A stretch of DNA of 64,000 nt from Candidatus Omnitrophota bacterium (GTDB taxonomy: Bacteria > Omnitrophota > Gorgyraeia > Gygaellales > Profunditerraquicolaceae): assembly GCA_026416665.1 (NCBI GenBank), contig JAOAET010000051.1, positions 11,800-75,799 of the forward strand, in the 5' to 3' direction. Each line of letters starts with the position of its first letter. The first letter of the stretch is position 1. This document shows positions 38,743 to 60,019 of this stretch, piece by piece. Made by a program: the position numbers and the translations under genes. The notes under the pieces are model-generated. The model made no database searches. It had not been told where the DNA came from and saw only the letters and a list, made by a program, of their open reading frames with translations.

Positions 38743-39525
38743 CTATATCCTCAGTTTAAAAAAAGTTACTGCATTTAAGGTAGTTTGTCTTGCCACTTCC
38801 TCAAGAGTAACTCCTTTTATTAAGGCAACTTCTTCAGCTAACCGCCGAACAGAGGCTGGTTCGTTGCGTTTACCACGCATACCTTCTGGAGAAAGATATG
38901 GGGCATCTGTTTCAAGACAAATACATTCAAGCGGAGTTACCCTCACAAGTTGGCGTAAGTATTCTGATCTTTTATAGGTAATGTTACAGGTAAACGAAAC
39001 AAGATACCCTCGTGTTATACATTCTTTTAAAAATTGCTCATCTCCACTAAAACAATGAATAAGGACACTATCAACTGATTCTTCTTTTAGTATTTGTAAA
39101 GTCTTTTCTTGAGCCTGCCGACAGTGGATTACTACGGGTTTGGCTAATTTCTTAGAAATCCGTAACAAACAACGAAACAACTCTTCCTGTTTATTGGGAC
39201 TAGATAGATTGCGATAGTAATCTAGACCTATTTCACCAATAGCCACTACCTTGGGATTCTGTGCAAGATACAAAAACTCCTCTTCATCTTCAGCTCGCCA
39301 GGTATCTGCATCATGGGGATGACAACCCACAGTAGCAAATACATTTGGATATCGCTTGGAAAGTTCTATGCACTGACGAGAAGCTGATAAACTTGAACCA
39401 ACAGATATAATCCAATGCACATTTTGCCTTTGCGCAGAGGCCAAAACCTCATCCCTATCCCTGGCAAACTCTGGAAAATCAAGATGACAATGGGTATCTA
39501 CTAGTGACCAGTCTCTATTATCCAT
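38743..39525 (-). CDS. tatD: TatD-family metal-dependent hydrolase/DNase
   Basis: 'LVDTHCHLD', 'GEIGLDY' and 'HCFSG' motifs. Confidence 0.85.
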   Translation of the reverse strand: MDNRDWSLVDTHCHLDFPEFARDRDEVLASAQRQNVHWIISVGSSLSASRQCIELSKRYPNVFATVGCHPHDADTWRAEDEEEFLYLAQNPKVVAIGEIGLDYYRNLSSPNKQEELFRCLLRISKKLAKPVVIHCRQAQEKTLQILKEESVDSVLIHCFSGDEQFLKECITRGYLVSFTCNITYKRSEYLRQLVRVTPLECICLETDAPYLSPEGMRGKRNEPASVRRLAEEVALIKGVTLEEVARQTTLNAVTFFKLRI

Positions 39526-39537
39526 TAAAATAGTTTA

Positions 39538-41046
39538 CTACTCTGTCTCAATTCGGGGAAAAAGAGGCAGTGATTTTTTAATTACTTTCTGTCCTATCTG
39601 CTGCTGTATAAAAGCTGCTGTCTGTGGCATAAATGCCGAAAGTTCGCTATTTATCGCTCTAATAATTTCTACTAAAAATCTCATGAACAACGCAAGTTCA
39701 TTTTTCTTATTCTCCTTCAACAAATTCCATGGTTTGGTTTCTTCTATATACTTATTTGCCTTATTGATAAGTTCCCAGATTCTTTCAAGAGCCAGACTGA
39801 AATTAAAATCATTCTCAGGCTGTAAGATTTTAAATACATCTTCGGGTAATCTACGGACGACAAATTTAATCTCTTCGGCTTGCTTACTCAATGACTGGGT
39901 CCAGATATCTATTTCTGGTATAGTTCCAGAAAAATATTTCTCTATCATACTAAGCGTGCGATAAACTAAGTTCCCTAAGTCATTGGCTAAATCACTATTA
40001 TAACGTTTAACAATTGCTTCCTCTGAAAAGTTACCGTCTAAACCAAAAGGGACATCGCGCAAGAGAAAATATCTTAAACCATCTGCGCTATATTTTTGGG
40101 TAAGCTCAACAGGTGAGATGACATTACCACGAGACTTAGACATCTTAGTCTCTTGGCTTAACCACCAACCGTGTGCACAAATAGTCTTAGGTGGCTGTAT
40201 TCCTAAAGCATGTAGCATAATGGGCCAATAAATTGCATGTTGGCGTAAAATATCTTTGCCAATTAACTGTAAGTCTGCAGGCCACCACAAAGAGTGGTAT
40301 TGTCCCTTTTCATCAAAATCACCAACTGCGCTAATATAATTAATCAGCGCATCAAACCAGACATAAGTAACATAGTCACTATCAAAAGGAATAGGGATAC
40401 CCCAAGATAATCGCTCTTTTGGGCGTGATATACATAAATCCTCTAAACGATTTTCTTCAAGAAACCGAACTACTTCATTGTAACGTATCTGCGGACGGAC
40501 AAATAAAGGATTTCTCTTTAAATAATCCATTAGCCAATCTTGATATATAGATAAGCGGAAAAAATAATTTTTTTCTGTAATGTATTCTACTGGTCGTTGA
40601 CAATCAGGGCAGAGATTATCTTTTAGCTGTGATTGTGCCCAGAAGCTTTCACAGGGGGTGCAATACCATCCTTCATACTGTGCTTGGTAGATATCATTTT
40701 TTTCTTTCAAAATACTTAGCACCCTTTGTACTACCTTCTTATGCCTTTCTTCAGTAGTACGAATAAAGTCATTATAGGATATACCTAGAATTTTCCATAA
40801 TTCCTTGAAAGTCAATACAACCCTATCAGCAAAAGAAAGTGTATCTAGACCGGAAGCCTGTGCGGCCCGTTGTATCTTCTGCCCGTGTTCGTCTGTTCCT
40901 GTTAGAAACCAAACATTCTGTTGACCATACCTATTTCGCATACAACGGGCAATCGTATCTGCCGCAATTGTAGTATAAGAATGTCCAATATGTGGTTGGG
41001 CATTAATGTAATATAAAGGTGTAGTTAAATAAAACTTATTCGCCAT
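39538..41046 (-). CDS. metG: Methionyl-tRNA synthetase (short form without C-terminal dimerisation/EMAP domain)
   Basis: Class I motifs 'HIGHSYT' and 'KMSKSRGN', and a Zn knuckle 'CPDC'. Confidence 0.9.
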   Translation of the reverse strand: MANKFYLTTPLYYINAQPHIGHSYTTIAADTIARCMRNRYGQQNVWFLTGTDEHGQKIQRAAQASGLDTLSFADRVVLTFKELWKILGISYNDFIRTTEERHKKVVQRVLSILKEKNDIYQAQYEGWYCTPCESFWAQSQLKDNLCPDCQRPVEYITEKNYFFRLSIYQDWLMDYLKRNPLFVRPQIRYNEVVRFLEENRLEDLCISRPKERLSWGIPIPFDSDYVTYVWFDALINYISAVGDFDEKGQYHSLWWPADLQLIGKDILRQHAIYWPIMLHALGIQPPKTICAHGWWLSQETKMSKSRGNVISPVELTQKYSADGLRYFLLRDVPFGLDGNFSEEAIVKRYNSDLANDLGNLVYRTLSMIEKYFSGTIPEIDIWTQSLSKQAEEIKFVVRRLPEDVFKILQPENDFNFSLALERIWELINKANKYIEETKPWNLLKENKKNELALFMRFLVEIIRAINSELSAFMPQTAAFIQQQIGQKVIKKSLPLFPRIETE

Positions 41047-41124
41047 AATCGAAGTTTATTGTTTTAGTGTAGCTTAATTAAGAGATGAATTTAATCTATG
41101 GTTTTACCAATTTGCTTTACCTAA

Positions 41125-41907
41125 TTATTTGTAATGAACTTCTATTACTGCTCCTGTTTCTAATTCCACAGTTGCTGTGCGTTTGAAAACATTAACACTA
41201 ATTACTTTACCTTTTCCTTCCTTAAGATTAACGCGCTCCCCCTCTTTTGGTAAACCTTTAGAAAGTATCTTATAGGTCTCATATTCAAAATTAAGACAGC
41301 ACATAAGTCTACCACAAATACCAGAGATTTTAGGAGGGTTAAGTGGGAGCCCTTCTTCTTTAGCCATCTTTATTGTAACAGGTTCAAAATCTTTTAGGAA
41401 AGTAGCACAACACAGCTGTCTACCACAAGGCCCAAAACCACCAAAAAATTTTGTTTCGTCTCTTACCCCTATTTGACGCAATTCAATACGTGCTTTAAAA
41501 ATTTTGGCAAGATCTTTGACTAATTCTCGGAAATCTACCCTACCTTCTGCCGTAAAATAAAATACTATTTTTGTTCGGTCAAAAGAATACTCAGCCTGCA
41601 CAATTTTCATTTCTAATTTATGTTCCTCTACTTTTCTGATGCAAGTAACAAGTGCCTCCTTTGCCTTTGTGCGATTTTCCTCAATTTGTTTTTTGTCCTG
41701 TTCTCTGGCAATACGAACAATTTTCTTTATCGGTTGTTTATCCGATAGCTCCTTTTCATCTACCTTAAGTGATATTATCTGACCGTAATCTAAACCTCGG
41801 TCATGTTCAACAATAACCAAATCTCCTTCTTTTACCTCACAGCCACCGGTAAAATAATAACAGTTTTGTCCTGTATCTCTTAGCCGAACACAAACTATGG
41901 ATTCCAT
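41125..41907 (-). CDS. ricT: PSP1-domain protein (RicT/YaaT family)
   Basis: PSP1 C-terminal domain with 'CGRQLCCATFL' / 'CGRLMCC' Cys pairs. Located next to holB as in Firmicutes. Confidence 0.7.
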   Translation of the reverse strand: MESIVCVRLRDTGQNCYYFTGGCEVKEGDLVIVEHDRGLDYGQIISLKVDEKELSDKQPIKKIVRIAREQDKKQIEENRTKAKEALVTCIRKVEEHKLEMKIVQAEYSFDRTKIVFYFTAEGRVDFRELVKDLAKIFKARIELRQIGVRDETKFFGGFGPCGRQLCCATFLKDFEPVTIKMAKEEGLPLNPPKISGICGRLMCCLNFEYETYKILSKGLPKEGERVNLKEGKGKVISVNVFKRTATVELETGAVIEVHYK

Positions 41908-41929
41908 AAATCTGTCCTCGTTAAATAAA

Positions 41930-42964
41930 TTAGCTTCTTATCTCTGACAACACCATATTAAGTAGAAGTTTAAGATTGACATTCTGTTCGGTATATAACA
42001 AGGCCTCTTTTAAAACATACATAATCCGCTCTATTTTCTCCAAGGAAAAATCTTTTGCCAAACTCTCTAAAAGCGGAAGATTTTCTGAATCGGCTATTGT
42101 GCTAGGCGGAAGTTCTGCTTTTAAAAAATATAAGTCCCTCAAAAATAAAGAAATAAAACAGATAGACCTTATAAATCTTTCTTTATCTTGTAGGAATGTT
42201 TGCTCTGTATTAGGAAATCTTTGAACAAAAAATAAATTTATAACGCGCTTTTTTTCTGTGAGTAGCTGTTCACTATTCTCTCTTACCGCCTTACCTAAAC
42301 TACCCTCATAAAAATAGGCAAGATACCTGCGCGCCTCTTGGGAAAGGTCCTGTTGTTTGGCTAATATATCTTCTATTAAAGCTGTATTGACCCCAGAAAA
42401 TTTAAGCAGTTTACAGCGTGAAATGATAGTTGGATAGAGAAGATTTTTTTTGTCTGTGACTAAAATAATTACACTGTAGCCAGGTGGTTCTTCTAGAGTC
42501 TTTAGGAAGGCATTGGCTGCATCACTATTCAAATTGTGGGCATCATTAATAATTACTACTTTATAACAAGACTTAGTAGGCTTATAGGAGAGTTCCTGCT
42601 GTAACTGGCGTATTTCTTCAATTTTTATCTCTTTGCTCTTAGAACCCACAGATATAGCTTTCTTTTGCGTTTCTGTTTCAGGGATAGGGTATTCTGTGGT
42701 ATCTATCTCTTCTGCCTGTTTATCCACAATATAAACATCTGGATGGTTGCGACGCTCAATAGCTAAACAGTTATGACACCGCTGGCAACAGTCATCAGTC
42801 TGGTTAATACATTGAATAGCCTTTGCAAAATTAACTGCAGTTAAGAATTTTCCCACTGCGGTTGGTCCTGAAAATAGATAAGCACCTGCTACTCTTTTAG
42901 TTTGCAAGATACGCTGTAAAACAGAAATTTGCAGACTATGTCCTTTAATGTCTTTAAACGCCAT
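41930..42964 (-). CDS. holB: DNA polymerase III delta-prime subunit
   Basis: 'AYLFSGPTAVGK' degenerate Walker A, Zn module 'CQRCHNC', and 'VIIINDAHNLN'. Confidence 0.8.
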   Translation of the reverse strand: MAFKDIKGHSLQISVLQRILQTKRVAGAYLFSGPTAVGKFLTAVNFAKAIQCINQTDDCCQRCHNCLAIERRNHPDVYIVDKQAEEIDTTEYPIPETETQKKAISVGSKSKEIKIEEIRQLQQELSYKPTKSCYKVVIINDAHNLNSDAANAFLKTLEEPPGYSVIILVTDKKNLLYPTIISRCKLLKFSGVNTALIEDILAKQQDLSQEARRYLAYFYEGSLGKAVRENSEQLLTEKKRVINLFFVQRFPNTEQTFLQDKERFIRSICFISLFLRDLYFLKAELPPSTIADSENLPLLESLAKDFSLEKIERIMYVLKEALLYTEQNVNLKLLLNMVLSEIRS

Positions 42965-43580
42965 CTTTGAAGAATATCTTGTCTACAATTTTACGAATAC
43001 GTTGTTGGGTTGAATTTAAATCGTCTAATAATCTTACTACCTTTATTCTTTCAGGAAATTTTTTAGATAAAATACGATACCCCTGTTGGACACGCCGGTG
43101 ATAAGAAAAAGCCCTTTGTTCAATTCGGTCTTTCCTTCGTAATATTTTCTTAAACGCTTTTGATAAAGGAATATCCAAAAGTATAGTTAAATCAGGCGTA
43201 ATCCCCTCTGTTACAAATTCCCCTAATCTTTGAATAAATTCTAAATCCATGCCTAGTCCATATCCCTGATAGACAACAGTAGAATCAAGAAATCTGTCAC
43301 AAATAACAATAAATCCATTCTTCAAAGCAGGACGAATAACCTCTTCAACTGTCTGCGCCCTGCTTGCCATATAAAGTAAAAGCTCAGTCTTATCAGCCAT
43401 CTTAATATTATGAGGATCAAGAAGAATTCTACGAATCGCCTCACTGATTTTAGTGCCTCCAGGCTCACGTAAAAAGATAACCTTGCGATATTTACTTTTT
43501 AGATATTCAAATAGTAACCTTGACTGTGTGCTCTTACCACTACATTCCGTACCTTCAAAAGTAATAAATTTTGCTCTCAA
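42954..43580 (-). CDS. tmk: Thymidylate kinase
   Basis: P-loop 'ITFEGTECSGKSTQ' and the 'DRF' motif. The ORF-track start at 43691 overlaps cysS by 65 nt. A TTG at 43580 preceded by GGAGA (5-nt spacing) is the likely start. Confidence 0.75.
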   Translation of the reverse strand: MRAKFITFEGTECSGKSTQSRLLFEYLKSKYRKVIFLREPGGTKISEAIRRILLDPHNIKMADKTELLLYMASRAQTVEEVIRPALKNGFIVICDRFLDSTVVYQGYGLGMDLEFIQRLGEFVTEGITPDLTILLDIPLSKAFKKILRRKDRIEQRAFSYHRRVQQGYRILSKKFPERIKVVRLLDDLNSTQQRIRKIVDKIFFKDGV

Positions 43581-43626
43581 ATTAATCTCCTTCTTTAATA
43601 AATTATCTGCCCAAAATAAGCATTTT

Positions 43627-45063
43627 CTACAATTTCCTTCTCCAGGTTGTTCCTTCTTTGGTATCCTCAAGAATAATACCTTCTTGCTCAAGCTCTTTAC
43701 GAATACGGTCAGCTTCCAGAAAATTACGTTGTCTCTTGGCCTGAAGTCGTCTTTGTATCAACTCTTCAATACGTTTATTCTCTTCATCTTGGTTGGTTTC
43801 TTTATATGAAGTTACCGTAACTACTTCGTTGATGTCTATGCCTAAAACTTTAAGAAAATCAGAAAAAAGAATCTGTGCCTGTGCTACAAACATTTTATCT
43901 AAGATATTCTTGTTAGTCTGGCTAATTAATTCAAAAAGACACGCCACTGCCTTTGGGGTATTGAAGTCATCATCCATTGCCGCAACAAATTCCTGTCTTA
44001 AATTATCTAGCAGATGATTATCAAAATGTGAAAATACTTTTTGTATTTTTAAAGTGTTAATCTTATGCCAAAGAATACTGATTCTTTCAAGCGCCTGTTT
44101 TGCCTCTGAGATTTTTGTTTCAGTATAATCAATAGGATGGCTGTAATGTGTAGAAAGAAAAAAAAGTTTAAGTATACTTGCATATTTATAACGTCTTAAA
44201 AAGTCCTCAACAGTAATAAAGTTACCTAAAGACTTTGCCATCTTCTGTCCGTTTATCGTAAGCAGTCCGTGGTGTAGCCAATATCGGGCAAAAGATTTAC
44301 CTGCTGCTTCAGACTGGGCAATTTCGTTTTCATGGTGTGGGAAAATTAAATCAATACCACCTCCATGAATATCAAAGGCGTCCCCCAAAATGTCTGAACT
44401 CATTACAGAACACTCGATGTGCCAACCGGGTCTACCTTTACCCCAAGGGCTGTCCCAACACGGTTCTTCTTTCTTTGCCTTTTTCCAAAGGGCGAAATCC
44501 AAAGGATTGCGTTTCTGCTCATTAAGTGCTACACGTGCACCTGCCTCCATCTTCTCGAGAGACTGATTAGAAAGTTTTCCATAGGACTTTGCCTGGCTAA
44601 TGTCAAAATATACGTCACCATTAGATACATAAGCTACTTTGCGTTTAAGAAGCTCTTCAATAAAAGTAATCATCTTGGGAATATATTGGCTTGCTTTAGG
44701 CTCAATAACCTGTGGTTCTTTATAAGCAATGCCTAATTTATCTAATGCACAGTGGTAACTTTCTAAATACTTATCCGCAACTTTCTTAAAAGAAATCTGT
44801 AATTCTTCTTCAGGATACTCATTTCTTGCCTTATCAATAATTTTATCATCTACATCAGTTACATTACGCACAAATTTTACTTCATAACCTCGCCAGATAA
44901 GATAACGTCTTATTAAATCAAATACATAGGCACTGCGTGCGTGGCCGATATGCGGTTCGTCATAAACAGTAGGACCACATACATACATTGAGAACTTCCC
45001 TTTTTCTAAGGGAATTAATTCCTCTTTTCTACGCATTAAGGAATTATAAACCGTAATACCCAT
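43627..45063 (-). CDS. cysS: Cysteinyl-tRNA synthetase
   Basis: 'HIGHARS', 'KMAKSLGN' and Zn-ligand cysteines. Confidence 0.9.
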   Translation of the reverse strand: MGITVYNSLMRRKEELIPLEKGKFSMYVCGPTVYDEPHIGHARSAYVFDLIRRYLIWRGYEVKFVRNVTDVDDKIIDKARNEYPEEELQISFKKVADKYLESYHCALDKLGIAYKEPQVIEPKASQYIPKMITFIEELLKRKVAYVSNGDVYFDISQAKSYGKLSNQSLEKMEAGARVALNEQKRNPLDFALWKKAKKEEPCWDSPWGKGRPGWHIECSVMSSDILGDAFDIHGGGIDLIFPHHENEIAQSEAAGKSFARYWLHHGLLTINGQKMAKSLGNFITVEDFLRRYKYASILKLFFLSTHYSHPIDYTETKISEAKQALERISILWHKINTLKIQKVFSHFDNHLLDNLRQEFVAAMDDDFNTPKAVACLFELISQTNKNILDKMFVAQAQILFSDFLKVLGIDINEVVTVTSYKETNQDEENKRIEELIQRRLQAKRQRNFLEADRIRKELEQEGIILEDTKEGTTWRRKL

Positions 45064-45064
45064 C

Positions 45065-45751
45065 TTACTTATTTCTTTTCTCTAAGTCGGCTATGCGTTT
45101 CTCAAGCTCTTCTAAATTCTGCATAAGTGGATCTAAGATATGTATGTGGTCAAGGCTCACATCAATTTTTCTGCCGTCTTGTTTAGTTATCCTACCAGGA
45201 ACCCCCACAATGGTAGAGTTAGGCGGAACATCTCTTATTACCACTGCATTTGCACCAATATAAGAATTATCTCCTATAGTAATATTACCTAAAACCTTTG
45301 CTCCTGCACCAATGACCACATTGTTTCCAATAGTGGGATGGCGTTTACCTTTTTCAAGCCCTGTTCCCCCTAAGGTAACCCCTTGATATAGAAGCACATT
45401 GTCACCAATAATAGCAGTTTCACCAATAACTACTCCCATACCGTGGTCAATGAAACAACCTTTACCAATGGTTGCTCCTGGGTGAATTTCAACTCCTGTA
45501 AGAAAACGCCCTATCTGGCTAATCCATCGTGCAATAAAATATAATTTCTTTTTATAGAAAAAATGGGCGATGCGGTATAAGACTAAAGCATGTAAACCTT
45601 GATACAATAGTAAAATCTCCCATATACTTCGTGCTGCTGGGTCCTTTTCTTTAGCGGCTTTCACTTCCTCTTGGAAAAAAAGGAGAATAACAGTAACTTT
45701 TAAAGCTAAAAATATAATCAAGAATAATAAAAACTTAAGTAAAAATAACAT
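45065..45751 (-). CDS. cysE: Serine O-acetyltransferase (left-handed beta-helix) with an N-terminal hydrophobic extension
   Basis: Hexapeptide repeats '[34 protein letters not shown]' and the CysE N-terminal block 'DPAARS'. The first ~25 residues form a predicted TM helix. Confidence 0.8.
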
Positions 45752-45753
45752 TT

Positions 45754-46272
45754 TTACTCCTTTTTTAAAAGGCAGACAGCATACGCAGCAATTGCCTCAG
45801 CCCTGCCTACTTCACCAATTCCATTATTAGTCTTTGCTTTGATACTAACTGCTTCCTGTTTAACACCCGTAGTCTGACTGATTATCTGCTGCATAGCTTT
45901 TTTAAAAGGCACAAAGTTTGGCTGGCTGGCAATAATTACACAGTCGATATTTATAAGATTAAATCCTTCTTGTTTAATAGAATTAATCAACTTCTCTAAC
46001 AATGTCCTACTTGAAATCCCTTCATATGAAGGGTCAGTATCAGGAAAACATTCGCCTATATCCTGTTTTCCTGTTGCACCTAAAAGCGCATCACATATAG
46101 CATGTAAAAGAACATCGCCGTCTGAATGGCCAGAAAGTCCTTTAATATAGGGTATCTGTATTCCTCCGATAAACAGTGGTCTTCCCTCAATAAGAGGATG
46201 TATATCATAACCAAATCCTATACGGAGATTTTCCATAATATCAGGCCTTTCGTTTAGCCAATGCTTGAGCAA
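45754..46272 (-). CDS. ispF: 2-C-methyl-D-erythritol 2,4-cyclodiphosphate synthase
   Basis: 'GFGYDIHPL' and '[19 protein letters not shown]' signatures. Confidence 0.9.
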
Positions 46273-47909: not shown

Positions 47910-47945
47910 TTTACCTCCTATTAAAGAAAATAAAAACTTATGAGT

Positions 47946-49328: not shown

Positions 49329-49369
49329 TTAAAAATTCACTTTAAAAAAAATGATATAAGTTCAAAAGA

Positions 49370-50071
49370 TTATTTCTTTGGAGACTTTGGCTCTGCTGAC
49401 TTTTCTCGCGGTTTAACAAGAAGCTTCCAGGGATGTTTTCTTATGTCAACAACAAGTTCTTCAAGTTGCTTATACAATGAATCATCATAAAGTAGCTTGC
49501 CAAGGGTACCTTCTTTGTTCTTAATTTTAGTTAAACCATCATCTAAGTTCTGGGTAAACGAAGAAATAGAATTGGTTAACGTCTTTATGTCATTCATACT
49601 CTGGTCTAGTTTAGTGGCAATAGATTTAGCCAACTCTCCAAATTCATGCATTGGTAACGGATTATTACCAATAATCATGGCATTTTCACCTAAGAAATTC
49701 GCATAGTTTTTTCCTGGCATAATTTCAATATATTTTTCTCCCAGCAATCCCAGAGTATTTACCCATACTTCCGAATCTTCTGGTATATGCACTCCCTTAC
49801 GAATATAGGCGACAATCTCCACTTTTGTGTTGTTGGTCTCTTGACTGGCAACAATATTAATATGCCTTACCTGTCCTACATCTACTCCTGCGAAACGAAC
49901 AGGTGCACCTACTTTAACACCGTTTATAAAATTAAAAATAAAAGTAACCTTGTAGGCAGAGATAGTGTTTTTAAAATCACCGATTAAAAGCACGAAAATA
50001 AAAAGAATAATGATAGCAATAAAAACAAATATTCCTACTTTAAACTCAGTTTTTGTTTTTCCAAAGTTCAT
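49370..50071 (-). CDS. mlaD: MCE-domain protein MlaD
   Basis: N-terminal TM anchor followed by an MCE fold ('GVKVGAPVRFAGVDVGQV'). Confidence 0.7.
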   Translation of the reverse strand: MNFGKTKTEFKVGIFVFIAIIILFIFVLLIGDFKNTISAYKVTFIFNFINGVKVGAPVRFAGVDVGQVRHINIVASQETNNTKVEIVAYIRKGVHIPEDSEVWVNTLGLLGEKYIEIMPGKNYANFLGENAMIIGNNPLPMHEFGELAKSIATKLDQSMNDIKTLTNSISSFTQNLDDGLTKIKNKEGTLGKLLYDDSLYKQLEELVVDIRKHPWKLLVKPREKSAEPKSPKK

Positions 50072-50084
50072 AAGACCCCCTCCA

Positions 50085-50858
50085 TTATCTGAACTGTTCC
50101 ACAGTTTCGGTTATGGGACCTTCTGAAAGGCCATTAATAAACTGATATACAATAGGATGTTCTGTGTTCTGTATCTCTTGGGGAGTGCCTTCAGCAATAA
50201 TCTGTCCTTGATAGAGCATAGCAATACGGTCAGCAATCTTATAGGCACTCTTCATATCGTGAGTTACCACAATAGAGGTGACCTTAAGCTTATCATGCAG
50301 ACCGCGGATAAGTTCATTAATAGAATCAGCGGTAATGGGGTCCATACCCGTTGTAGGTTCATCATATAAGATAATTTCTGGTCTGGTGCAAATTGCTCTG
50401 GCTAAAGCAACTCGTTTCTTCATTCCTCCGCTTAGCTCCGAAGGCATTAAACTAGCAATACCTGAAAGCCCCACTAATGATAAAGCCTCTTCCACCCGTT
50501 CGTATAAAGCATCACCCGACATATTTTCGTGCTCAATCAACTCAAAACCAACATTTTCTCCAACAGTCAAAGAATCAAAAAGTGCTCCCCCTTGAAAAAC
50601 CATATTAATCTTCTTATGAAATTCTTGTGCTTCTTTTCGAGTTAACTGCCAGATATCTTTACCATATACAAAAACATTACCACTATCCGGACGAATAAGT
50701 CGGATAATATGTTTAAGCATAACACTTTTACCACAGCCGGAACGACCTATAACTACTAAGGTTGAACCGCGCTTAACTTTCAAGTTACAGCCGCGTAATA
50801 CCTTTTGAGAATTAAAAGATTTATAGACGTTACGTAGCTCTATGATATAATCTTCCAT
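50085..50858 (-). CDS. mlaF: ABC transporter ATP-binding protein MlaF
   Basis: Walker A 'GRSGCGKS', ABC signature 'LSGGMKKRVALARA' and Walker B 'ILYDEPTTGMD'. Confidence 0.8.
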   Translation of the reverse strand: MEDYIIELRNVYKSFNSQKVLRGCNLKVKRGSTLVVIGRSGCGKSVMLKHIIRLIRPDSGNVFVYGKDIWQLTRKEAQEFHKKINMVFQGGALFDSLTVGENVGFELIEHENMSGDALYERVEEALSLVGLSGIASLMPSELSGGMKKRVALARAICTRPEIILYDEPTTGMDPITADSINELIRGLHDKLKVTSIVVTHDMKSAYKIADRIAMLYQGQIIAEGTPQEIQNTEHPIVYQFINGLSEGPITETVEQFR

Positions 50859-50864
50859 TTGATT

Positions 50865-51650
50865 TTATGGAAATATAAAATAAAACAATGCGGTAAAGAA
50901 ACAATCGCACATAATTATAAGAATAAATGAGGTAACCACTGAACGGGTAGTTGCTTTACCTACTCCCTCTGCTCCCCCTTCTACATTGAATGCCTCGTAG
51001 CAAGACACAAGTGCAATAATCATTCCAAAAAAAATAGTCTTTGCCAATCCTGTAAACAAATCCTTAAAAAGTAGTGAATCAAAGGTGATATTTAAATAAA
51101 GCCGTGAGGAAATTCCTAGTTTCAACACACAGATTGCCCACCCTCCAAAAATTCCAACAATATCTGCATAGAGGGTCAAAACAGGCAATACAAAAGCTAA
51201 GGCTACAAGTCGCGGCACAACCAAATATTTTATAGGATTTGCTGCCAATGTCTCCAATGCATCTATCTGTTCAGTTACTTGCATTGAACCTAACTCTGCA
51301 GTAATTGCTGCTCCTACACGACCGGCAACCACTAAAGCAGTAATTACAGGCCCCAACTCACGGACAATGGAAAGAGCAACAATACTGGCAATATACATCT
51401 CAGAGCCAAAACGAATCATTAGATACGATATCTGAAATGCCATAATTACGCCAATAAAAAAGGCAATTAAAGACACAAGTGGTAAACTTTCTACACCTGC
51501 CTTATGCATCTGCTCAAATATTCTACGCCTTGAGTAAGGGGGAACAAAAATCCAAATAATACTCTGAAAAGTAAGGTTAGTTAATCCACCCAAAAAATAT
51601 ATAAATTGCTGAAATTGACTGAATAAGTCATTTTTAACTTTTCTAAACAT
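50865..51650 (-). CDS. mlaE: ABC permease MlaE
   Basis: Five TM helices, about 260 aa, MlaE family size and context upstream of mlaF and mlaD. Confidence 0.7.
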   Translation of the reverse strand: MFRKVKNDLFSQFQQFIYFLGGLTNLTFQSIIWIFVPPYSRRRIFEQMHKAGVESLPLVSLIAFFIGVIMAFQISYLMIRFGSEMYIASIVALSIVRELGPVITALVVAGRVGAAITAELGSMQVTEQIDALETLAANPIKYLVVPRLVALAFVLPVLTLYADIVGIFGGWAICVLKLGISSRLYLNITFDSLLFKDLFTGLAKTIFFGMIIALVSCYEAFNVEGGAEGVGKATTRSVVTSFILIIMCDCFFTALFYFIFP

Positions 51651-51654
51651 AGGC

Positions 51655-54066
51655 TTATTCGAAAGCTAATTCTTGGTTTTTCCTTACTACAGTTACAGTT
51701 TGACCTTCCGTAAATTTCTTAGCAATAATCTCCGAAGCCAAGGGATCCTCTAAGAAACGTTGAATAGTGCGTTTAAGTGGACGTGCGCCAAAAACAGGGT
51801 CAAAACCTTTTTCAATTAAAAACTCCTTTGCCTCAGCCGTAACATTTAGTGTAATTGCCTGTTCTTTAAGACGTTCAGCAACATGGGCGATTTCAATATC
51901 TACAATTTTCACCAAATCCTCTTTTACTAGAGGCCTAAACACAATAATATCATCAATACGATTGAGGAACTCAGGCTTAAAAGTGCGTTTTACCTCTTCT
52001 AATAACTTTTCTTTCATTTCTTGGTAAGTAATATCCTCTTTCTGTGCACGAAATCCAATGGAAGTAGCTTTACGGATTAACTCTGCTCCTACATTAGAAG
52101 TCATAATCACTACCGTGTTTCTAAAATCCACTTTTCTTGCGAAGCTATCAGTAAGGCGTCCTTCCTCAAATACCTGTAAAAGTAAATTAAACACATCAGG
52201 ATGTGCCTTCTCTATTTCATCTAAAAGTATCACAGAATAAGGTTTCCTACGCACTTTTTCAGTTAACTGCCCTCCCTCTTCATAACCTACATATCCAGGA
52301 GGTGCACCAATAAGACGAGAAACATTAAATTTCTCCATATACTCAGACATGTCTAACTGAATGATGGCATCTTCCTGACCAAAAAGATACTCTGCAAGGG
52401 CACGCGCAAGTAAAGTCTTTCCCACACCAGTTGGACCTAGAAAAATAAACGAGCCAATTGGTCGACGAGGATCCTTAATACCTGCTCGTGAACGCCTAAT
52501 TGCTGAGGCTATGGCCGAAATTGCTTCATCTTGCCCCACTACTTTTTTATGTAACTCGTCTTCTATCTTAAGCAGTTTCTCACCCTCTTTTTGTTCTAAA
52601 CGAAAAAGGGGAATTCCTGTCCATTGTGAAACAATTCGAGCAATATCTTCCTCTCCTACTTGTGGCCTTATCTTATCCTTAGTCTGTGCCCATTGACGAT
52701 TAAGTTTCTCTAGTTCTTCACGCGCCTGCCGCTCTTGGTCACGTAAGGCTGCAGCCTTTTCAAAATCTTGTGCCTTTATATGCATTTCTTTTTCTTTACG
52801 CAGTGCCTCTACCCTTGCCTCTAATTCCTTAATTTCAGGAGGCACCACTAATACATTTAAACGTGCACGTGAACCTGCTTCATCAATCAAATCAATGGCT
52901 TTATCAGGTAAAAATCTTCCTGAGATATAACGGTCGGATAACTTTGCCGCTGCTACTAATGCCTCTTCAGTAAAGGTAACACGGTGATGACTTTCATACT
53001 TCTCCCTTAGTCCTTTAAGAATTTCAACAGTCTGTTCCACTGTCGGCGGCTCAACCATTATTGTCTGAAATCTCCGCTCAAGAGCTGCATCTTTCTCAAT
53101 ATACTTACGATACTCGTCTAACGTAGTTGCTCCGATACACTGAATTTCACCACGGGATAAAGCAGGTTTAAGAATATTAGAGGCATCTATTGCCCCTTCT
53201 GCAGCACCTGCTCCTACTAAAGTATGCAACTCATCAATAAAAATAATTACATCCTGTGAACGCTTTATCTCCTCCATTACTGCTTTAATACGCTCTTCAA
53301 ATTGTCCGCGGTATTTTGTTCCAGCAATCATCAAAGCAAGGTCTAAAACAATCAGGCGCTTATGTCGCAATATCTCGGGGACATTTCCTGCAACAATTGC
53401 CTGGGCAAGACCTTCTACTATAGCGGTTTTTCCTACACCTGCCTCTCCTAAAAGCACGGGATTATTTTTTGTCCTTCGGCTTAGGATTTGAATAACCCGT
53501 TCAATCTCTGTCTTGCGGTTTATTACTGGGTCAAGCTTATTCTCACGAGCAAGAGCAGTCAAGTCTCTTCCAAAGGCATCTAAAGCAGGGGTTTTAGTTT
53601 TTGCCCCCTGTTGACTAAAAGTCGGCACATCTGAACCTAATACCTCCATTATCTTGTTTCGCACGGTAGTTAAATCTAAACCCAAGTTCAACAATATCTG
53701 CGATGCCACACCTTCTTCTTCGCGAATCAATCCCAGTAATAAATGCTCTGTTCCAATATAGTTGTGCCCTAAAGCACGTGCCTCTTCTGCGGCCAACTCT
53801 AGTGCCTTCTTTGCACGCGGAGTAAAAGGCAAATCTCCGATAATCTGAGTAGCTGGTCCTGGTTGCACTAATTTTTCAATCTCAATACGAATATTCTCTA
53901 ACGATACCCCCATCTTTTCTAAGACCGTAGCAGCCACTCCTTCTCCTTCACGGATAAGCCCTAAAAGTATATGCTCAGTTCCAATATAGTCATGGTTAAA
54001 TCTTTTAGCTTCTTCTTTTGCAAGAATAATTACCTTGCGTGCCCGTTCAGTAAAGCGATTAAACAT
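51655..54066 (-). CDS. clpC: ATP-dependent Clp protease ATP-binding subunit ClpC
   Basis: Two Clp_N repeats, two AAA+ modules ([16 protein letters not shown]), a ClpP-binding loop (IGF motif) and a linker/UVR-like middle domain. Confidence 0.9.
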
Positions 54067-54087
54067 ATTGCCTCCTATAAAGTAGCA

Positions 54088-55143
54088 TCACAGAGCTTTC
54101 TCTAATCTGTTGCGAATAAGCTCTGCGCGTTTTATATCACGTTCGTTTTGGTTTAGTTTTTTGTTCTCCATCTTCTGCAGATGCGCTGGTTGTGTAATAA
54201 TAAAAAGTTCATTGATAATTCGTCTGTTGATGTCTTTAATTATCTCTAAATCTACACCAAGCCGCACCAAAGAGAGTAACTCTGTTGTCTCCTGACTAGA
54301 GATTATTCTTGCGCTCTTTAATATTCCGTAGCTACGGTTAATCTTGTCTTCTAAGAGTGCTCTGTTTTGGGTAAGAAGGAGATTACGAGCCTGATTTTCC
54401 TGCTCAATAATTTGACGTATAAGACCATTTATGTTGTCAATAAGCTCAGTATCATTTCTTCCTAAGGCAATCTGATTAGAAATCTGAAAGAAATTACCCA
54501 TTGCTTGCGTTCCTTCACCGTATAAGCCGCGTGTAGCAAAACTTAATTTTGCAATTGCTGCTAGAACCTGATTAATCTGACGGGTCATTACTAACCCCGG
54601 CAGATGTAGCATCACTGAACCACGCATCCCCGTTCCTGTGTTAGTCGGACAAGCAGTTAAATATCCCCAATCTTCAGAGAATGCAAAAGATAACTCCTCT
54701 GCCAGGCAGTCATCAATACGATTGATTATGTTATAAGCCTCAAAGAGATTAAACCCTGACTGCATAACTTGGATACGCAAATGATCCTCTTCATTTATCA
54801 TAATAGAAACTATCTCTTCGCTATCTATTATCACAGCTTTTGAATCACTTTTTTGTGCATGTTCATAGGACATAAGGTGGCGTTCTACTAAAAACTGTTT
54901 ATCTAAACTGTCCATATCTGCTAATTTAAAAAGAGTGGACTTCTTCAGATAATCAATGTTTTTCATTGCCTCTTCCACCATATCCAAAACTTGTTTTGAC
55001 TGGCGTTTGTTTGCCCAGTGAGGAAAAGGCAACTTCTCAATATTGCGCGCAAAACGCACACGACTGGAGATAACAATATTAGAGTGTGGACCTGTTCCTT
55101 TCAACCACTCACTTGTATGAGATAGAAGGTCATTTAACTGCAT
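54088..55143 (-). CDS. mcsB: Protein-arginine kinase McsB (ATP:guanido phosphotransferase family)
   Basis: Phosphagen-kinase active-site region 'CPTNTGTGMR'. About 350 aa. It sits between mcsA and clpC. Confidence 0.8.
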   Translation of the reverse strand: MQLNDLLSHTSEWLKGTGPHSNIVISSRVRFARNIEKLPFPHWANKRQSKQVLDMVEEAMKNIDYLKKSTLFKLADMDSLDKQFLVERHLMSYEHAQKSDSKAVIIDSEEIVSIMINEEDHLRIQVMQSGFNLFEAYNIINRIDDCLAEELSFAFSEDWGYLTACPTNTGTGMRGSVMLHLPGLVMTRQINQVLAAIAKLSFATRGLYGEGTQAMGNFFQISNQIALGRNDTELIDNINGLIRQIIEQENQARNLLLTQNRALLEDKINRSYGILKSARIISSQETTELLSLVRLGVDLEIIKDINRRIINELFIITQPAHLQKMENKKLNQNERDIKRAELIRNRLEKAL

Positions 55144-55145
55144 AA

Positions 55146-55661
55146 TTATCCTTCTTGTTTCTTTTCCTTTTCTTGTAATTGCCGAATTTGGTCGCGAATA
55201 ATCGCTGCCTCTTCGTATGCCTCACGTTGAATAGCATCTTGTAGCTTACAACGTAATTGCTGAATATCCATTTTTTTCTTGTTTGCCTTTGTCGCTCCTG
55301 TTTTTGGAGGGCATTTACCGCAATGAATGCTTGAACCGTGTATTCTTTTTAAAAGTGGATACAAAAACTTCTTAAAAGCACTGTAACATTCACTGCAACC
55401 AAGTCGACCAATTTTTTTGAAGTCTTTGTAGCTCATCCCACAGTTAGGACACTTGGCAACATTAGACTCCTTCTCTTCTTGTGGTGGTTTCTCAATATCC
55501 GCAAGCCCTGCTAATAGGTCAGAAAGCCCAAACTGTTGTTCCATCTGTGAGCTTTTTTTACGAGCACACTCTTCACAAAGATGTAACTCACTCATTTGGT
55601 CATCAATAATTTCAGTTAAGTGAACAGTAGCAGTATTTTTTCCACAGACATCACATAACAT
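55146..55661 (-). CDS. mcsA: McsA, arginine kinase activator with two Zn-fingers and a UVR motif
   Basis: 'CDVCGK...CEEC' and 'CPNCG...CSEC' fingers plus the C-terminal UVR motif 'REAYEEAAIIRDQIRQLQ'. Confidence 0.75.
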   Translation of the reverse strand: MLCDVCGKNTATVHLTEIIDDQMSELHLCEECARKKSSQMEQQFGLSDLLAGLADIEKPPQEEKESNVAKCPNCGMSYKDFKKIGRLGCSECYSAFKKFLYPLLKRIHGSSIHCGKCPPKTGATKANKKKMDIQQLRCKLQDAIQREAYEEAAIIRDQIRQLQEKEKKQEG

Positions 55662-59894: not shown

Positions 59895-59961
59895 AGATGA
59901 TATATTATAAAGGATATTGGAAAGGGTGTCAATTGAAGAAAGCTAATGGCTTTACTTAATC

Positions 59962-59990
59962 TTGTCTAAAAAGTTAAAATGCGCTATAAT
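59962..59990 (+). promoter_or_regulatory. Sigma70 promoter (TTGTCT-17-TATAAT) upstream of the 60020 ORF
   Basis: TTGTCT at 59962..59967, a 17-nt spacer and TATAAT at 59985..59990. An AAGGAG RBS lies 7 nt before the GTG start at 60020. Confidence 0.55.
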
Positions 59991-60019
59991 TAAAAAGTAT
60001 GATTTAAAAGGAGTTTCTA

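What the first reader, a model, noticed from the sequence alone, without database searches (positions are those of the whole stretch)
38743..55661. Firmicute-type conserved gene order, including the McsA/McsB–ClpC arginine-phosphorylation module, in a diderm background with an embedded mlaEFD insertion
Reading the minus strand gives mcsA, mcsB, clpC, [mlaE-mlaF-mlaD], radA, a yacL-like PIN/TRAM gene, ispD, ispF, cysE, cysS, then tmk, holB, ricT(yaaT), metG and tatD. This reproduces the Bacillus clpC operon neighbourhood (ctsR-mcsA-mcsB-clpC-radA-disA-yacL-ispD-ispF-gltX-cysE-cysS) and the tmk-holB-yaaT…metS-yabD array. Yet the organism clearly builds an outer membrane (Lpt, Lol, Mla, PagL-like). 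The McsB arginine kinase/McsA pair is usually regarded as a Gram-positive trait. The Mla phospholipid-transport ABC system is inserted exactly between clpC and radA. No ctsR or disA is present at the expected positions.
Basis: partly seen in the sequence, partly recalled or inferred. Interest (0 to 1): 0.6.

Follow-up and report, generated by a model that had tools for sequence, protein, structure and literature searches.

The report
McsAB–ClpC module in an Omnitrophota genome
A bacterium of the candidate phylum Omnitrophota, which has an outer membrane, carries the complete arginine-phosphorylation protein-degradation module best known from Gram-positive bacteria, set in a very old string of housekeeping genes; this is the normal arrangement in several outer-membrane-bearing phyla, not an oddity of this genome.

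Summary
mcsB reaches an NCBIfam protein-arginine-kinase equivalog cut-off. mcsA keeps both zinc sites. clpC keeps both N-domain GTEH motifs and the ClpP loop. No ctsR, disA, CtsR box or CIRCE is present.

The McsB is 100% identical to an NCBI MAG protein already named "protein arginine kinase [Candidatus Omnitrophica bacterium]".

The colinearity is longer than reported. It starts at lysS: lysS-[lolCE-lolD-ilvE]-mcsA-mcsB-clpC-[mlaEFD]-radA-PIN/TRAM-ispD-ispF-cysE-cysS. An unlabelled metagenome contig carries the uninterrupted backbone.

The reading "Firmicute trait in a diderm" is only partly right:
- The order is conserved across Omnitrophota.
- Parts recur in Verrucomicrobiota, anammox Planctomycetota, Elusimicrobiota, WOR-3, Gemmatimonadota and Latescibacterota. 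In these, mcsAB-clpC lies next to Lol and Mla or BamA-Skp genes.
- McsB trees split Bacillota from all diderm phyla (196/200), so recent transfer is unlikely.
- Chlamydial McsAB/ClpC is already published.
- tmk-holB-tatD also occurs in E. coli.

Verdict: a canonical, CtsR-less phosphoarginine-ClpC module in an ancient synteny block. It is a new member of a known kind, of moderate evolutionary interest.

The parts
59904..59932 (-). Promoter-like site, perfect sigma-70 consensus (TTGACA-17-TATAAT). Its -10 box ends 9 nt before the lysS ATG. It is the likely head of the co-directional gene string.
   Evidence: This is a consensus match only; function is inferred.
58440..59894 (-). lysS (lysine-tRNA ligase). 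It is the first gene of the colinear backbone.
   Evidence: TIGR00499, 561 bits against a cut-off of 428.
57246..58436 (-). lolC/E-type lipoprotein-release ABC permease (diderm-specific module 1).
   Evidence: MacB_PCD + FtsX; TIGR02212, 334 bits, below the 362 cut-off.
56577..57245 (-). lolD-type ABC ATPase (diderm-specific module 1).
   Evidence: TIGR02211, 281 bits, below the 308 cut-off; it is the best hit.
55694..56563 (-). ilvE, branched-chain amino-acid aminotransferase. It lies directly upstream of mcsA.
   Evidence: NF006185, 472 bits against 363; TIGR01122, 347 against 246.
55146..55661 (-). mcsA, activator of the arginine kinase. It has two CxxC...CxxC zinc sites (C3/C6/C29/C32 and C71/C74/C89/C92) and a C-terminal UVR/coiled coil.
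   Evidence: The Z2 cysteine spacing equals that of B. subtilis C81/84/99/102 (PMC11046695).
54088..55143 (-). mcsB, protein arginine kinase. It has a kinase domain with NEEDH and the catalytic Cys in CPTN, and a C-terminal dimerisation domain with the phosphoarginine receptor site (S283, R335, D336, R339).
51655..54066 (-). clpC, a class I AAA+ unfoldase. It has two Clp_N repeats with GTEH motifs, a short UVR middle domain, two AAA modules and an IGF ClpP-docking loop.
   Evidence: 1051 bits to B. subtilis ClpC over residues 1-793.
50865..51650 (-). mlaE, permease (diderm-specific module 2).
   Evidence: TIGR00056, 252 bits against 212.
50085..50858 (-). mlaF-type ABC ATPase.
   Evidence: the best hit is the MlaF equivalog, below its cut-off.
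49370..50071 (-). mlaD, an MCE-domain protein of the short type (233 aa, no beta-barrel).
   Evidence: This fits PVC MlaD as described in PMC10665443.
47946..49328 (-). radA/sms.
   Evidence: TIGR00416, 626 bits against 403.
46926..47909 (-). PIN+TRAM protein in the yacL position.
   Evidence: It is 41-54% identical to the gene at the same position in Bacillota loci.
46241..46957 (-). ispD.
45754..46272 (-). ispF.
45065..45751 (-). cysE, serine O-acetyltransferase.
   Evidence: TIGR01172, 253.5 bits against 210.65.
43627..45063 (-). cysS.
42954..43691 (-). tmk.
41930..42964 (-). holB (DNA polymerase III delta').
41125..41907 (-). ricT/yaaT (PSP1 domain).
   Evidence: NF041131, 300 bits against 70.
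39538..41046 (-). metG.
38743..39525 (-). tatD/ycfH-type hydrolase.
   Evidence: 38% identical to E. coli YcfH.

Best explanation
The window comes from an Omnitrophota (PVC group) genome.

**What the module does.** Positions 51655-55661 encode a canonical McsA-McsB-ClpC module.
- McsB, activated by the zinc protein McsA, phosphorylates arginine side chains of aberrant or regulatory proteins.
- The two N-terminal repeats of ClpC bind the phosphoarginine mark.
- ClpC unfolds the protein and feeds it to ClpP through its IGF loop.
- Unlike Bacillota, no CtsR repressor is attached. The module therefore most likely serves general protein quality control or regulated proteolysis, not a CtsR heat-shock switch.

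**Where it sits.** The module lies inside a long, tightly packed, co-directional housekeeping string that probably starts at a consensus promoter in front of lysS.
- The backbone is lysS-mcsA-mcsB-clpC-radA-PIN/TRAM-ispD-ispF-cysE-cysS. It is an ancient gene order shared with Bacillota-type genomes.
- In this and other outer-membrane-bearing phyla, envelope modules are interleaved: lolCE-lolD (plus ilvE) before mcsA, and mlaEFD after clpC.
- The same layout is inherited throughout Omnitrophota.

**Shown:** the gene identities, the conserved motifs, the conservation of order and its taxonomic spread.
**Inferred:** kinase activity, phosphoarginine-dependent degradation, co-transcription, and vertical (ancestral) origin of the block.
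For: **Identity of the proteins**
- McsB: NCBIfam protein-arginine-kinase equivalog above cut-off. Full-length match to the solved B. subtilis and Geobacillus McsB structures, E about 1e-100. NEEDH and the CPTN cysteine are invariant in a 37-sequence alignment. The phosphoarginine receptor residues S285/R337/D338/R341 of B. subtilis (PMC8370763) are conserved as S283/R335/D336/R339.
- McsA: all eight zinc cysteines and the UVR domain are present.
- ClpC: 1051 bits to B. subtilis ClpC over the full length, both GTEH motifs, the UVR middle domain and the 'SIGF' loop.

**Organism**
- The McsB is 100% identical to an NCBI Omnitrophica MAG protein.

**No CtsR**
- tblastn with a Paenibacillus CtsR hits 15 of 15 Bacillota-type loci, 0 loci from the three PVC phyla scanned (Omnitrophota, Verrucomicrobiota, Planctomycetota), and not the window.
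- CtsR-box matches are at background level (20 against 13.5 expected, none near mcsA). No CIRCE element is present.

**Conservation of order**
- Omnitrophota-type loci: lolD upstream in 18/18, clpC adjacent in 16/16, mlaE after clpC in 13/15.
- Verrucomicrobiota: ilvE-mcsA-mcsB in 22/22, clpC adjacent in 17/20.
- WOR-3: lysS-lolC-lolD-mcsA-mcsB-clpC.
- Gemmatimonadota, Latescibacterota and 'Handelsmanbacteria': lolA...lolC-lolD-mcsA-mcsB-clpC-bamA-skp-fabZ.
- Elusimicrobiota-type locus: lolC-lolD-ilvE-mcsA-mcsB.
- Anammox lineages: mcsA-mcsB-clpC-radA.
- Uninterrupted backbone lysS-mcsA-mcsB-clpC-radA-disA-PIN-ispD-ispF-gltX-cysE-cysS on contig L091.

**Trees**
- Bacillota separate from all diderm-phylum McsB in 196/200 NJ bootstraps. 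Verrucomicrobiota are monophyletic in 200/200. Between-phylum identities are uniformly 39-47%.

**Function in a PVC relative**
- Chlamydial ClpC-ClpP1P2 degrades casein only when it is arginine-phosphorylated (PMC10128030).

**Transcription**
- A perfect promoter sits before lysS. Intergenic gaps are tiny and no convincing terminators lie inside the string.
Against: - No biochemical data exist for any Omnitrophota protein.
- ClpP and a YwlE-type phosphoarginine phosphatase are not in the window, and the rest of the genome could not be examined.
- The B. subtilis octamer-latch residue R194 is Gln here, so the gated-octamer regulation may not apply.
- McsA scores below the Bacillus-type NCBIfam equivalog cut-off (166 against 210).
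- The trees are neighbour-joining only and midpoint- or un-rooted. They cover the 80 genome hits closest to the query out of more than 600, and support for Omnitrophota (62/200) and Planctomycetota (82/200) monophyly is weak. They cannot separate an ancestral origin from a very old transfer.
- Several loci I counted as Omnitrophota carry other names in their public records ('Planctomycetales', 'Deltaproteobacteria'). I grouped them by tree position and synteny.
- Promoter-like sites in the region are no more frequent than in shuffled sequence (50 against 51.5).
Confidence: 0.8

Rival explanations
1. Ancient horizontal transfer. The mcsA-mcsB(-clpC) cassette originated in Firmicutes and was transferred once or a few times into ancestors of the PVC and FCB-related phyla, landing by chance or by selection next to clpC or lysS.
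For: - The chlamydial mcsAB operon is separated from clpC and flanked by tRNAs, and its authors suggest acquisition (PMC10128030).
- Distribution among diderm phyla is patchy. Most Planctomycetota have mcsAB without an adjacent clpC (4/19), and a Dependentiae locus has mcsB alone.
- The literature treats the system as Gram-positive.
Against: - The genes flanking the cassette on both sides are single-copy essentials (lysS, radA, ispDF, cysES), and they keep the same order in Bacillota-type and Omnitrophota genomes. That is hard to obtain by inserting a cassette.
- Bacillota McsB form their own clan in 196/200 bootstraps, and no diderm sequence nests inside them.
- ClpC gives the same phylum-wise clans.
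- Between-phylum identity is uniformly low, at 39-47%.
Confidence: 0.15
2. Functional coupling. In diderm bacteria the phosphoarginine-ClpC system is kept next to Lol, Mla and Bam/Skp genes because it works with envelope biogenesis. It might, for example, clear lipoprotein or outer-membrane-protein precursors that fail to leave the cytoplasm, or tune transporter levels.
For: lolC-lolD lies directly upstream of mcsA, or with only ilvE between them, in Omnitrophota (18/18), about half of Verrucomicrobiota, Elusimicrobiota-type, WOR-3, Gemmatimonadota, Latescibacterota and 'Handelsmanbacteria' loci. Downstream of clpC lies either mlaEFD or bamA-skp-fabZ.
Against: - The evidence is purely positional.
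- The same string also holds unrelated housekeeping genes (lysS, ilvE, radA, ispDF, cysES).
- Planctomycetota, Dependentiae and Chlamydia lack the linkage.
- No experiment or paper linking McsB/ClpC to Lol, Mla or Bam was found.
Confidence: 0.15
3. The putative mcsB is a phosphagen (free arginine or creatine-type) kinase paralogue used for energy buffering, not a protein kinase.
For: It shares the ATP:guanido phosphotransferase catalytic domain. Bacterial phosphagen kinases do exist.
Against: - It lacks the N-terminal domain of phosphagen kinases. Only the C-terminal catalytic domain matches, and the protein is 351 aa.
- It has the McsB C-terminal domain (PF27454 on the identical protein P0001).
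- It passes a protein-arginine-kinase equivalog cut-off.
- It matches solved McsB structures at E about 1e-100, against 1e-27 for arginine kinases.
- It is flanked by mcsA and clpC.
Confidence: 0.02
4. The gene order has no meaning of its own. It is a by-product of genome streamlining in a small, densely packed genome where most genes face the same way.
For: About 27 consecutive genes lie on one strand with gaps mostly under 45 nt. GC skew is uniform across the window. The functions in the string are heterogeneous.
Against: Streamlining does not explain why the same order recurs in different phyla at 40-50% protein identity. These include large-genome Verrucomicrobiota and Paenibacillus with 7-8 Mb genomes.
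Confidence: 0.05

Closest known systems
Bacillus subtilis / Bacillota class III heat-shock clpC operon (ctsR-mcsA-mcsB-clpC) and its neighbourhood (radA-disA-yacL-ispD-ispF-gltX-cysE-cysS)
   Same: - McsA, McsB and ClpC match over their full lengths, with all tested functional motifs.
- The backbone genes follow the same order.
- From my own knowledge of the B. subtilis map, lysS also precedes this operon there, across rRNA operons. Two Paenibacillus loci fetched here have an rRNA operon directly upstream of ctsR.
   Different: - ctsR, CtsR boxes, disA and gltX are absent.
- lolCE-lolD-ilvE lie between lysS and mcsA, and mlaEFD between clpC and radA.
- McsB R194 (the octamer latch) is not conserved.
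- The module appears embedded in a long constitutive-looking string rather than forming a separate stress operon.
Chlamydia trachomatis ClpC with McsAB orthologues (PMC10128030)
   Same: - The host is a diderm bacterium of the PVC group.
- ClpC has conserved phosphoarginine-recognition residues and an IGF loop.
- McsA and McsB orthologues are present, and no CtsR-type control has been described.
- ClpC-ClpP1P2 needs an arginine-phosphorylated substrate in vitro.
   Different: - In Chlamydia, mcsAB is separated from clpC and flanked by tRNAs, and transfer has been suggested.
- Here the three genes are contiguous and sit in the ancestral-looking lysS...cysS string.
Minimal MlaEFD phospholipid-transport core (Veillonella parvula study, PMC10665443)
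   Same: Only mlaE, mlaF and mlaD are present. No mlaA, mlaB or mlaC lies in the neighbourhood. The MlaD is short and has no beta-barrel, as reported for PVC phyla.
   Different: - In V. parvula, mlaEFD lies in a large outer-membrane gene cluster next to a tamB homologue.
- Here it lies between clpC and radA.
- In some Omnitrophota relatives, an approximately 600-aa membrane protein with only a sub-threshold TamB hit sits between clpC and mlaE.
E. coli tmk-holB-ycfH cluster
   Same: tmk and holB are followed by a TatD-family hydrolase, and YcfH is 38% identical to the window's TatD.
   Different: The window has ricT (PSP1) and metG between holB and tatD, as Bacillus does.

Membership tests
McsB protein arginine kinase | Phosphagen-kinase-like catalytic domain with the NEEDH motif and the catalytic cysteine (CPTN) | tested here: met
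   PF00217 at 233 bits. NEEDH and C165 are invariant in alignment A1. Aligned to B. subtilis McsB (motifs named in PMC11046695).
McsB protein arginine kinase | No N-terminal substrate-specificity domain of phosphagen kinases; instead a C-terminal dimerisation domain with the phosphoarginine receptor site (S285, R337, D338, R341 in B. subtilis) | tested here: met
   Only the catalytic domain matches in a 351-aa protein. PF27454 (McsB_C) is recorded for the identical protein P0001. S283, R335, D336 and R339 are conserved.
McsB protein arginine kinase | Curated equivalog score | tested here: met
   NF002194 scores 466 bits against a cut-off of 385. The Bacillus-type model NF053707 scores 430 against 500, which is below its cut-off.
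McsB protein arginine kinase | Phosphorylates arginine residues in proteins | not testable with these tools
   This needs an enzyme assay or a phosphoproteome.
McsB protein arginine kinase | Autophosphorylated R194 that latches the closed octamer (B. subtilis-specific regulation) | tested here: not met
   The equivalent residue is Q192, while R190 is kept as R188. This feature belongs to B. subtilis regulation, not to the family as a whole. From my own recollection, the Geobacillus enzyme works as a dimer; this was not checked here.
McsA (arginine kinase activator) | Two zinc-coordinating CxxC...CxxC domains followed by a loop and a coiled coil / UVR domain | tested here: met
   C3/C6/C29/C32 and C71/C74/C89/C92. 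The Z2 spacing is identical to B. subtilis C81/84/99/102. UVR spans residues 133-164.
McsA (arginine kinase activator) | Curated equivalog score (Bacillus-type model NF053706) | tested here: inconclusive
   166 bits against a cut-off of 210, but the alignment is end-to-end (1-169 to 1-177 of 182), with E 7e-49. The model is tuned to Bacillus relatives. The McsA on contig L091 also falls below it, at 135 bits.
McsA (arginine kinase activator) | Encoded immediately upstream of mcsB | tested here: met
   The gap is 2 nt. The two genes are adjacent in 86 of 90 loci evaluated.
ClpC (class I Clp/Hsp100 unfoldase partnering ClpP) | Two Clp_N repeats with the phosphoarginine-binding GTEH motifs, two AAA+ modules, a short UVR-type middle domain, and a ClpP-docking (I/V)GF loop | tested here: met
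   Pfam finds Clp_N x2, AAA, AAA_lid_9, UVR, AAA_2 and ClpB_D2-small. The match to B. subtilis ClpC is 1051 bits over residues 1-793, with both GTEH motifs and 'SIGF' aligned to 'YVGF'. The role of E32 and E106 in phosphoarginine binding comes from my own knowledge of the literature.
ClpC (class I Clp/Hsp100 unfoldase partnering ClpP) | A ClpP partner in the same genome | not tested
CtsR regulon (class III heat-shock operon) | ctsR as the first gene of the operon | tested here: not met
   ilvE lies 32 nt upstream of mcsA. tblastn with CtsR gives no hit in the window or in any of the Omnitrophota, Verrucomicrobiota or Planctomycetota loci, against 15/15 Bacillota-type loci.
CtsR regulon (class III heat-shock operon) | Tandem heptad CtsR operator upstream of the operon | tested here: not met
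   20 matches at up to 3 mismatches against 13.5 expected. None lies upstream of mcsA or lysS. The single 1-mismatch match lies inside lptG at 32922-32938.
Mla phospholipid transport system | MlaE permease, MlaF ATPase and MlaD MCE protein encoded together | tested here: met
   PF02405 at 274 bits and TIGR00056 above cut-off. The MlaF and MlaD equivalogs are the best hits but fall below their Proteobacteria-tuned cut-offs.
Mla phospholipid transport system | Accessory MlaA, MlaB and MlaC (proteobacterial six-component system) | tested here: not met
   None was found among the window ORFs scanned. This fits the minimal MlaEFD core described in PMC10665443. The rest of the genome was not examined.

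The most novel reading that the evidence does not exclude
The string lysS-mcsA-mcsB-clpC-radA-PIN/TRAM-ispD-ispF-cysE-cysS is a relic of gene order that predates the split between Terrabacteria and Gracilicutes.

In outer-membrane-bearing lineages it carries envelope modules: Lol before mcsA, and Mla or BamA-Skp after clpC. The Bacillota version would then be the same string after loss of those modules and gain of ctsR and disA. The locus would record the diderm-to-monoderm transition.

The phosphoarginine degradation tag would be an ancestral bacterial system, possibly tied functionally to envelope-protein quality control, rather than a Gram-positive invention.
Probability: 0.25. Interest if true: 0.6.

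Novelty: new member of a known kind. Interest (0 to 1): 0.35.

Why it matters
Reviews and structural papers still describe arginine phosphorylation as a degradation tag of Gram-positive bacteria. This locus and its relatives show the complete McsA-McsB-ClpC set, with all tested functional motifs, as a stable, vertically inherited-looking feature of at least nine named outer-membrane-bearing phylum-level groups in these data (ten with Chlamydia from the literature).

There the set lacks CtsR and lies next to outer-membrane biogenesis genes.

- This widens the expected range of the phosphoarginine degron, and of ClpC-directed antibacterial ideas.
- It argues against a simple recent-transfer origin for chlamydial McsAB.
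- It offers a concrete synteny marker for studying how monoderm Firmicutes relate to diderm ancestors.

The proteins themselves are ordinary members of known families and are already named correctly in public annotation.

Tried and rejected
- **Exact look-up of the window's McsB** in the contig index found nothing, although an identical protein exists in the protein collection. The rest of the source genome (clpP, ywlE, rRNA) could therefore not be examined.
- **CtsR-box scan** and **CIRCE scan** found no operator. The one near-perfect CtsR-like match, at 32922-32938, lies inside lptG and is taken as chance.
- **Four literature searches** for McsB in diderm phyla, Negativicutes or Halanaerobiales found only two relevant sources. 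One is the Chlamydia ClpC paper. The other is one sentence in PMC11046695 about Proteobacteria.
- **A Biopython bootstrap run timed out**. I replaced it with my own numpy neighbour-joining.
- **Pfam on the extra ORFs between clpC and mlaE/radA** in relatives L009, L014 and L018 gave nothing, or only a sub-threshold TamB hit. I make no claim from these.
- **lysS was not found within 10 kb upstream of ctsR in the Paenibacillus loci**. The statement that lysS precedes the operon in B. subtilis rests on my own knowledge. The tool-based support for a lysS-mcsA junction comes from L091, WOR-3 and the Omnitrophota loci.
- **Rejected readings:** mcsB as a phosphagen-kinase paralogue, and mlaEFD as a recent insertion.

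Full report

Yes. The mechanical ORF list shows an unbroken run of minus-strand genes across 38743-55661.

- mcsA: 55146-55661.
- mcsB: 54088-55143. It has the ATP:guanido phosphotransferase catalytic domain and reaches the NCBIfam protein-arginine-kinase equivalog NF002194 at 466 bits, against a cut-off of 385.
- clpC: 51655-54066.
- mlaE, mlaF, mlaD: 49370-51650.
- radA: TIGR00416, 626 bits.
- A PIN+TRAM gene, then ispD and ispF.
- cysE: TIGR01172, above its cut-off.
- cysS, tmk, holB, ricT/PSP1, metG and tatD.

mlaEFD sits exactly between clpC and radA, with gaps of 4 to 41 nt. The gene 32 nt upstream of mcsA is ilvE, not ctsR.

The outer-membrane background is confirmed by LptF/LptG, PagL and LolCE/LolD in the same window.

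**2. What organism is it?**

The McsB is 100% identical over its full length to an NCBI MAG protein named 'protein arginine kinase [Candidatus Omnitrophica bacterium]'. Hundreds of 74-85% identical relatives are in metagenomes.

Omnitrophota belong to the PVC group. Public annotation already names this protein correctly.

**3. Are the three proteins functional-looking members of their families?**

*McsB*
- It aligns end to end with the solved B. subtilis and Geobacillus McsB structures (E about 1e-100). Arginine and creatine kinases match only the catalytic core, at about 1e-27.
- The NEEDH motif and the catalytic cysteine in CPTN are invariant in a 37-member alignment of 50%-identity cluster representatives.
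- The phosphoarginine receptor site that the eLife 2021 study defined as S285, R337, D338 and R341 (PMC8370763) is conserved as S283, R335, D336 and R339. I read this from ungapped alignment blocks.
- The B. subtilis octamer-latch arginine R194 is glutamine here. That particular regulatory device may therefore be absent.

*McsA*
- It has both zinc sites (C3/C6/C29/C32 and C71/C74/C89/C92), with the Z2 spacing of the B. subtilis protein, and a UVR/coiled-coil tail.
- It falls below the Bacillus-tuned NCBIfam cut-off (166 against 210) but aligns over the whole model.

*ClpC*
- It scores 1051 bits against B. subtilis ClpC over residues 1-793.
- It keeps both N-domain GTEH motifs, the short UVR middle domain and an IGF-type ClpP loop.

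**4. Regulation**

- A CtsR-box search gives background numbers (20 against 13.5 expected) and nothing near mcsA or lysS. No CIRCE element is found.
- A CtsR taken from a Paenibacillus locus hits all 15 Bacillota-type loci by tblastn. It hits none of the Omnitrophota, Verrucomicrobiota or Planctomycetota loci, and not the window. DisA behaves the same way.
- The only outstanding promoter-like site in 43-61 kb is a perfect TTGACA-17-TATAAT, nine nucleotides before the lysS start.
- Downstream of it, about 27 genes follow on one strand with very short gaps and no convincing terminator.
- I infer, but have not shown, that mcsAB-clpC is read as part of this long string rather than as a separate stress operon.

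**5. How far does the gene order extend, and how widely is it shared?**

It runs lysS (TIGR00499 above cut-off), lolCE, lolD, ilvE, then mcsA.

It returned 600 matching stretches, of which 599 were confirmed and the best 80 kept. I mapped the window's 21 proteins onto these and onto further loci by tblastn.

| Group | Arrangement found |
|---|---|
| Omnitrophota-type loci | lolD upstream 18/18; clpC adjacent 16/16; mlaE after clpC 13/15; then radA-PIN-ispD-ispF-cysE-cysS(-tmk). Holds down to 50% McsB identity |
| Verrucomicrobiota | ilvE-mcsA-mcsB 22/22; lolD upstream 11/22; clpC adjacent 17/20; some with mlaEFD and the PIN gene |
| Anammox Planctomycetota | mcsA-mcsB-clpC-radA |
| Other Planctomycetota | Mostly mcsAB alone |
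| WOR-3 | lysS-lolC-lolD-mcsA-mcsB-clpC |
| Gemmatimonadota, Latescibacterota, 'Handelsmanbacteria' | ftsK-lolA-...-lolC-lolD-mcsA-mcsB-clpC-bamA-skp-fabZ |
| Elusimicrobiota-type contig | lolC-lolD-ilvE-mcsA-mcsB |
| Dependentiae | mcsB alone |
| Bacillota | ctsR-mcsA-mcsB-clpC-radA-disA-...-PIN-ispD-ispF |
| Unlabelled contig L091 | hpt-ftsH-fol genes-coaX-greA-lysS-mcsA-mcsB-clpC-radA-disA-PIN-ispD-ispF-gltX-cysE-cysS, without ctsR |

Within Omnitrophota there are variants. One relative, L009, lacks mlaEFD. Three relatives (L014, L018, L020) lack radA.

L091 carries the whole backbone uninterrupted. The window therefore equals this backbone plus lolCE-lolD-ilvE and mlaEFD, and minus disA, gltX and ctsR.

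**6. Is it a recent import from Firmicutes?**

- Neighbour-joining trees of McsB (93 sequences) and ClpC (53 sequences) recover each phylum as its own group.
- The split between Bacillota and all diderm-phylum McsB has 196/200 bootstrap support. Verrucomicrobiota have 200/200. Omnitrophota (62/200) and Planctomycetota (82/200) are recovered only weakly.
- Mean identities between phyla are uniformly 39-47%.
- Both flanks of the cassette are single-copy essential genes in conserved order.
- Together this argues against recent transfer and fits long vertical inheritance.
- The trees are simple and unrooted, and they are drawn from a sample biased toward the query. A very old transfer cannot be excluded.

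**7. The second array**

tmk-holB followed by a TatD-family gene also occurs in E. coli K-12 as tmk-holB-ycfH, and YcfH is 38% identical to the window's TatD. Only the ricT and metG genes between holB and tatD resemble Bacillus.

**8. Comparison with what is known**

- The mBio 2023 study of Chlamydia trachomatis (PMC10128030) shows that a diderm PVC bacterium has ClpC with conserved phosphoarginine-recognition residues. ClpC-ClpP1P2 there degrades casein only when it is arginine-phosphorylated. McsAB orthologues exist as an operon away from clpC, and the authors suggest they were acquired.
- The PNAS 2024 McsAB structure paper notes homologues in 'some gram-negative bacteria' with untested activity.
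- The Veillonella Mla study shows that a three-gene MlaEFD core without MlaABC is widespread and probably ancestral, and that PVC MlaD lacks a beta-barrel. The window's Mla genes fit this description.
- None of the papers returned by these searches linked McsB to Omnitrophota, Verrucomicrobiota, Planctomycetota, the FCB-related phyla, or Lol/Mla/Bam genes.

**9. Verdict**

The finding is real and well described, but it is not an anomaly. It is a canonical, CtsR-less phosphoarginine-ClpC module, a new member of a known kind. It lies in an ancient housekeeping synteny block that diderm phyla share with Bacillota, with outer-membrane transport modules interleaved.

The most interesting residue is evolutionary. 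The recurring placement of mcsAB-clpC between Lol and Mla or Bam genes across several diderm phyla, together with the existence of the uninterrupted backbone, makes this locus a candidate marker for outer-membrane loss in Firmicutes. It also raises, weakly, a functional link to envelope quality control.

That reading is not established here. The comparison with diderm Firmicutes that would test it could not be run.

Noticed in passing
window 59895-59940 (minus strand): A perfect sigma-70 consensus promoter (TTGACA-17-TATAAT, 59932-59904) ends only 9 nt before the lysS ATG. The lysS mRNA would be leaderless or nearly so. The site heads a run of about 26 kb holding about 27 co-directional genes (lysS to alr, 59894-33872).
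   Followed up: partly
window 59895-60821: About 900 nt between lysS and the DUF4126 gene have no convincing gene. The only candidates are a 188-aa plus-strand ORF with no family match and overlapping short ORFs. No Rfam family matches at the gathering threshold.
   Followed up: partly
window 4244-5845 (minus strand): A single 533-aa ORF fuses a protein-L-isoaspartate O-methyltransferase (PCMT) domain to an M28 peptidase domain. This is an unusual pairing of protein repair and proteolysis.
   Followed up: no
window 27380-28762 (minus strand): A single 460-aa ORF fuses a Maf nucleotide pyrophosphatase domain to an M48 peptidase domain.
   Followed up: no
window 15778-18298 (minus strand): The class I fumarase alpha (17426-18298) and beta (15778-16344) subunit genes are separated by a 368-aa ORF (16351-17457). 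That ORF has only a weak DUF6612 match.
   Followed up: no
window 8388-10361: A 532-aa ORF (8560-10158) with no Pfam or NCBIfam match lies between two tRNA genes (8388-8461 and 10288-10361).
   Followed up: partly
window 22419-23344: A tmRNA gene (182 bits) lies directly next to smpB.
   Followed up: no
window 32922-32938 (minus strand): The only near-perfect CtsR-box-like sequence (AGACAAAGATAGTCAAA, 1 mismatch) lies inside the lptG coding region. I take it as chance.
   Followed up: yes
loci L003-L005, L008, L010, L012, L014 (record titles): Public MAG records carrying the same 16-gene order, and McsB that clusters with Omnitrophota, are titled 'Planctomycetales', 'Planctomycetia' or 'Deltaproteobacteria'. 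These are probably inconsistent taxonomic labels.
   Followed up: partly
L009 13481-14542; L014 13496-15310; L018 13393-15378; L020 (same position): Omnitrophota relatives vary at the clpC junction. L009 has an unknown ORF of about 350 aa instead of mlaEFD. L014, L018 and L020 have a membrane protein of about 600 aa between clpC and mlaE, with only a sub-threshold TamB hit, and they lack radA.
   Followed up: partly
L091 1-21059 (ENA ERZ27247880, unlabelled): This contig carries the uninterrupted backbone hpt-ftsH-folE-folP-folB-folK-...-coaX-greA-lysS-mcsA-mcsB-clpC-radA-disA-PIN-ispD-ispF-gltX-cysE-cysS. It has no ctsR and no rRNA operon. Its taxon is unknown, and its McsB is at most 43% identical to any labelled sequence.
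   Followed up: partly
L084, L088, L089 (Gemmatimonadota / Latescibacterota / 'Handelsmanbacteria'): mcsA-mcsB-clpC lies between lolA...lolC-lolD and bamA-skp-fabZ. It is flanked on both sides by outer-membrane biogenesis genes.
   Followed up: partly
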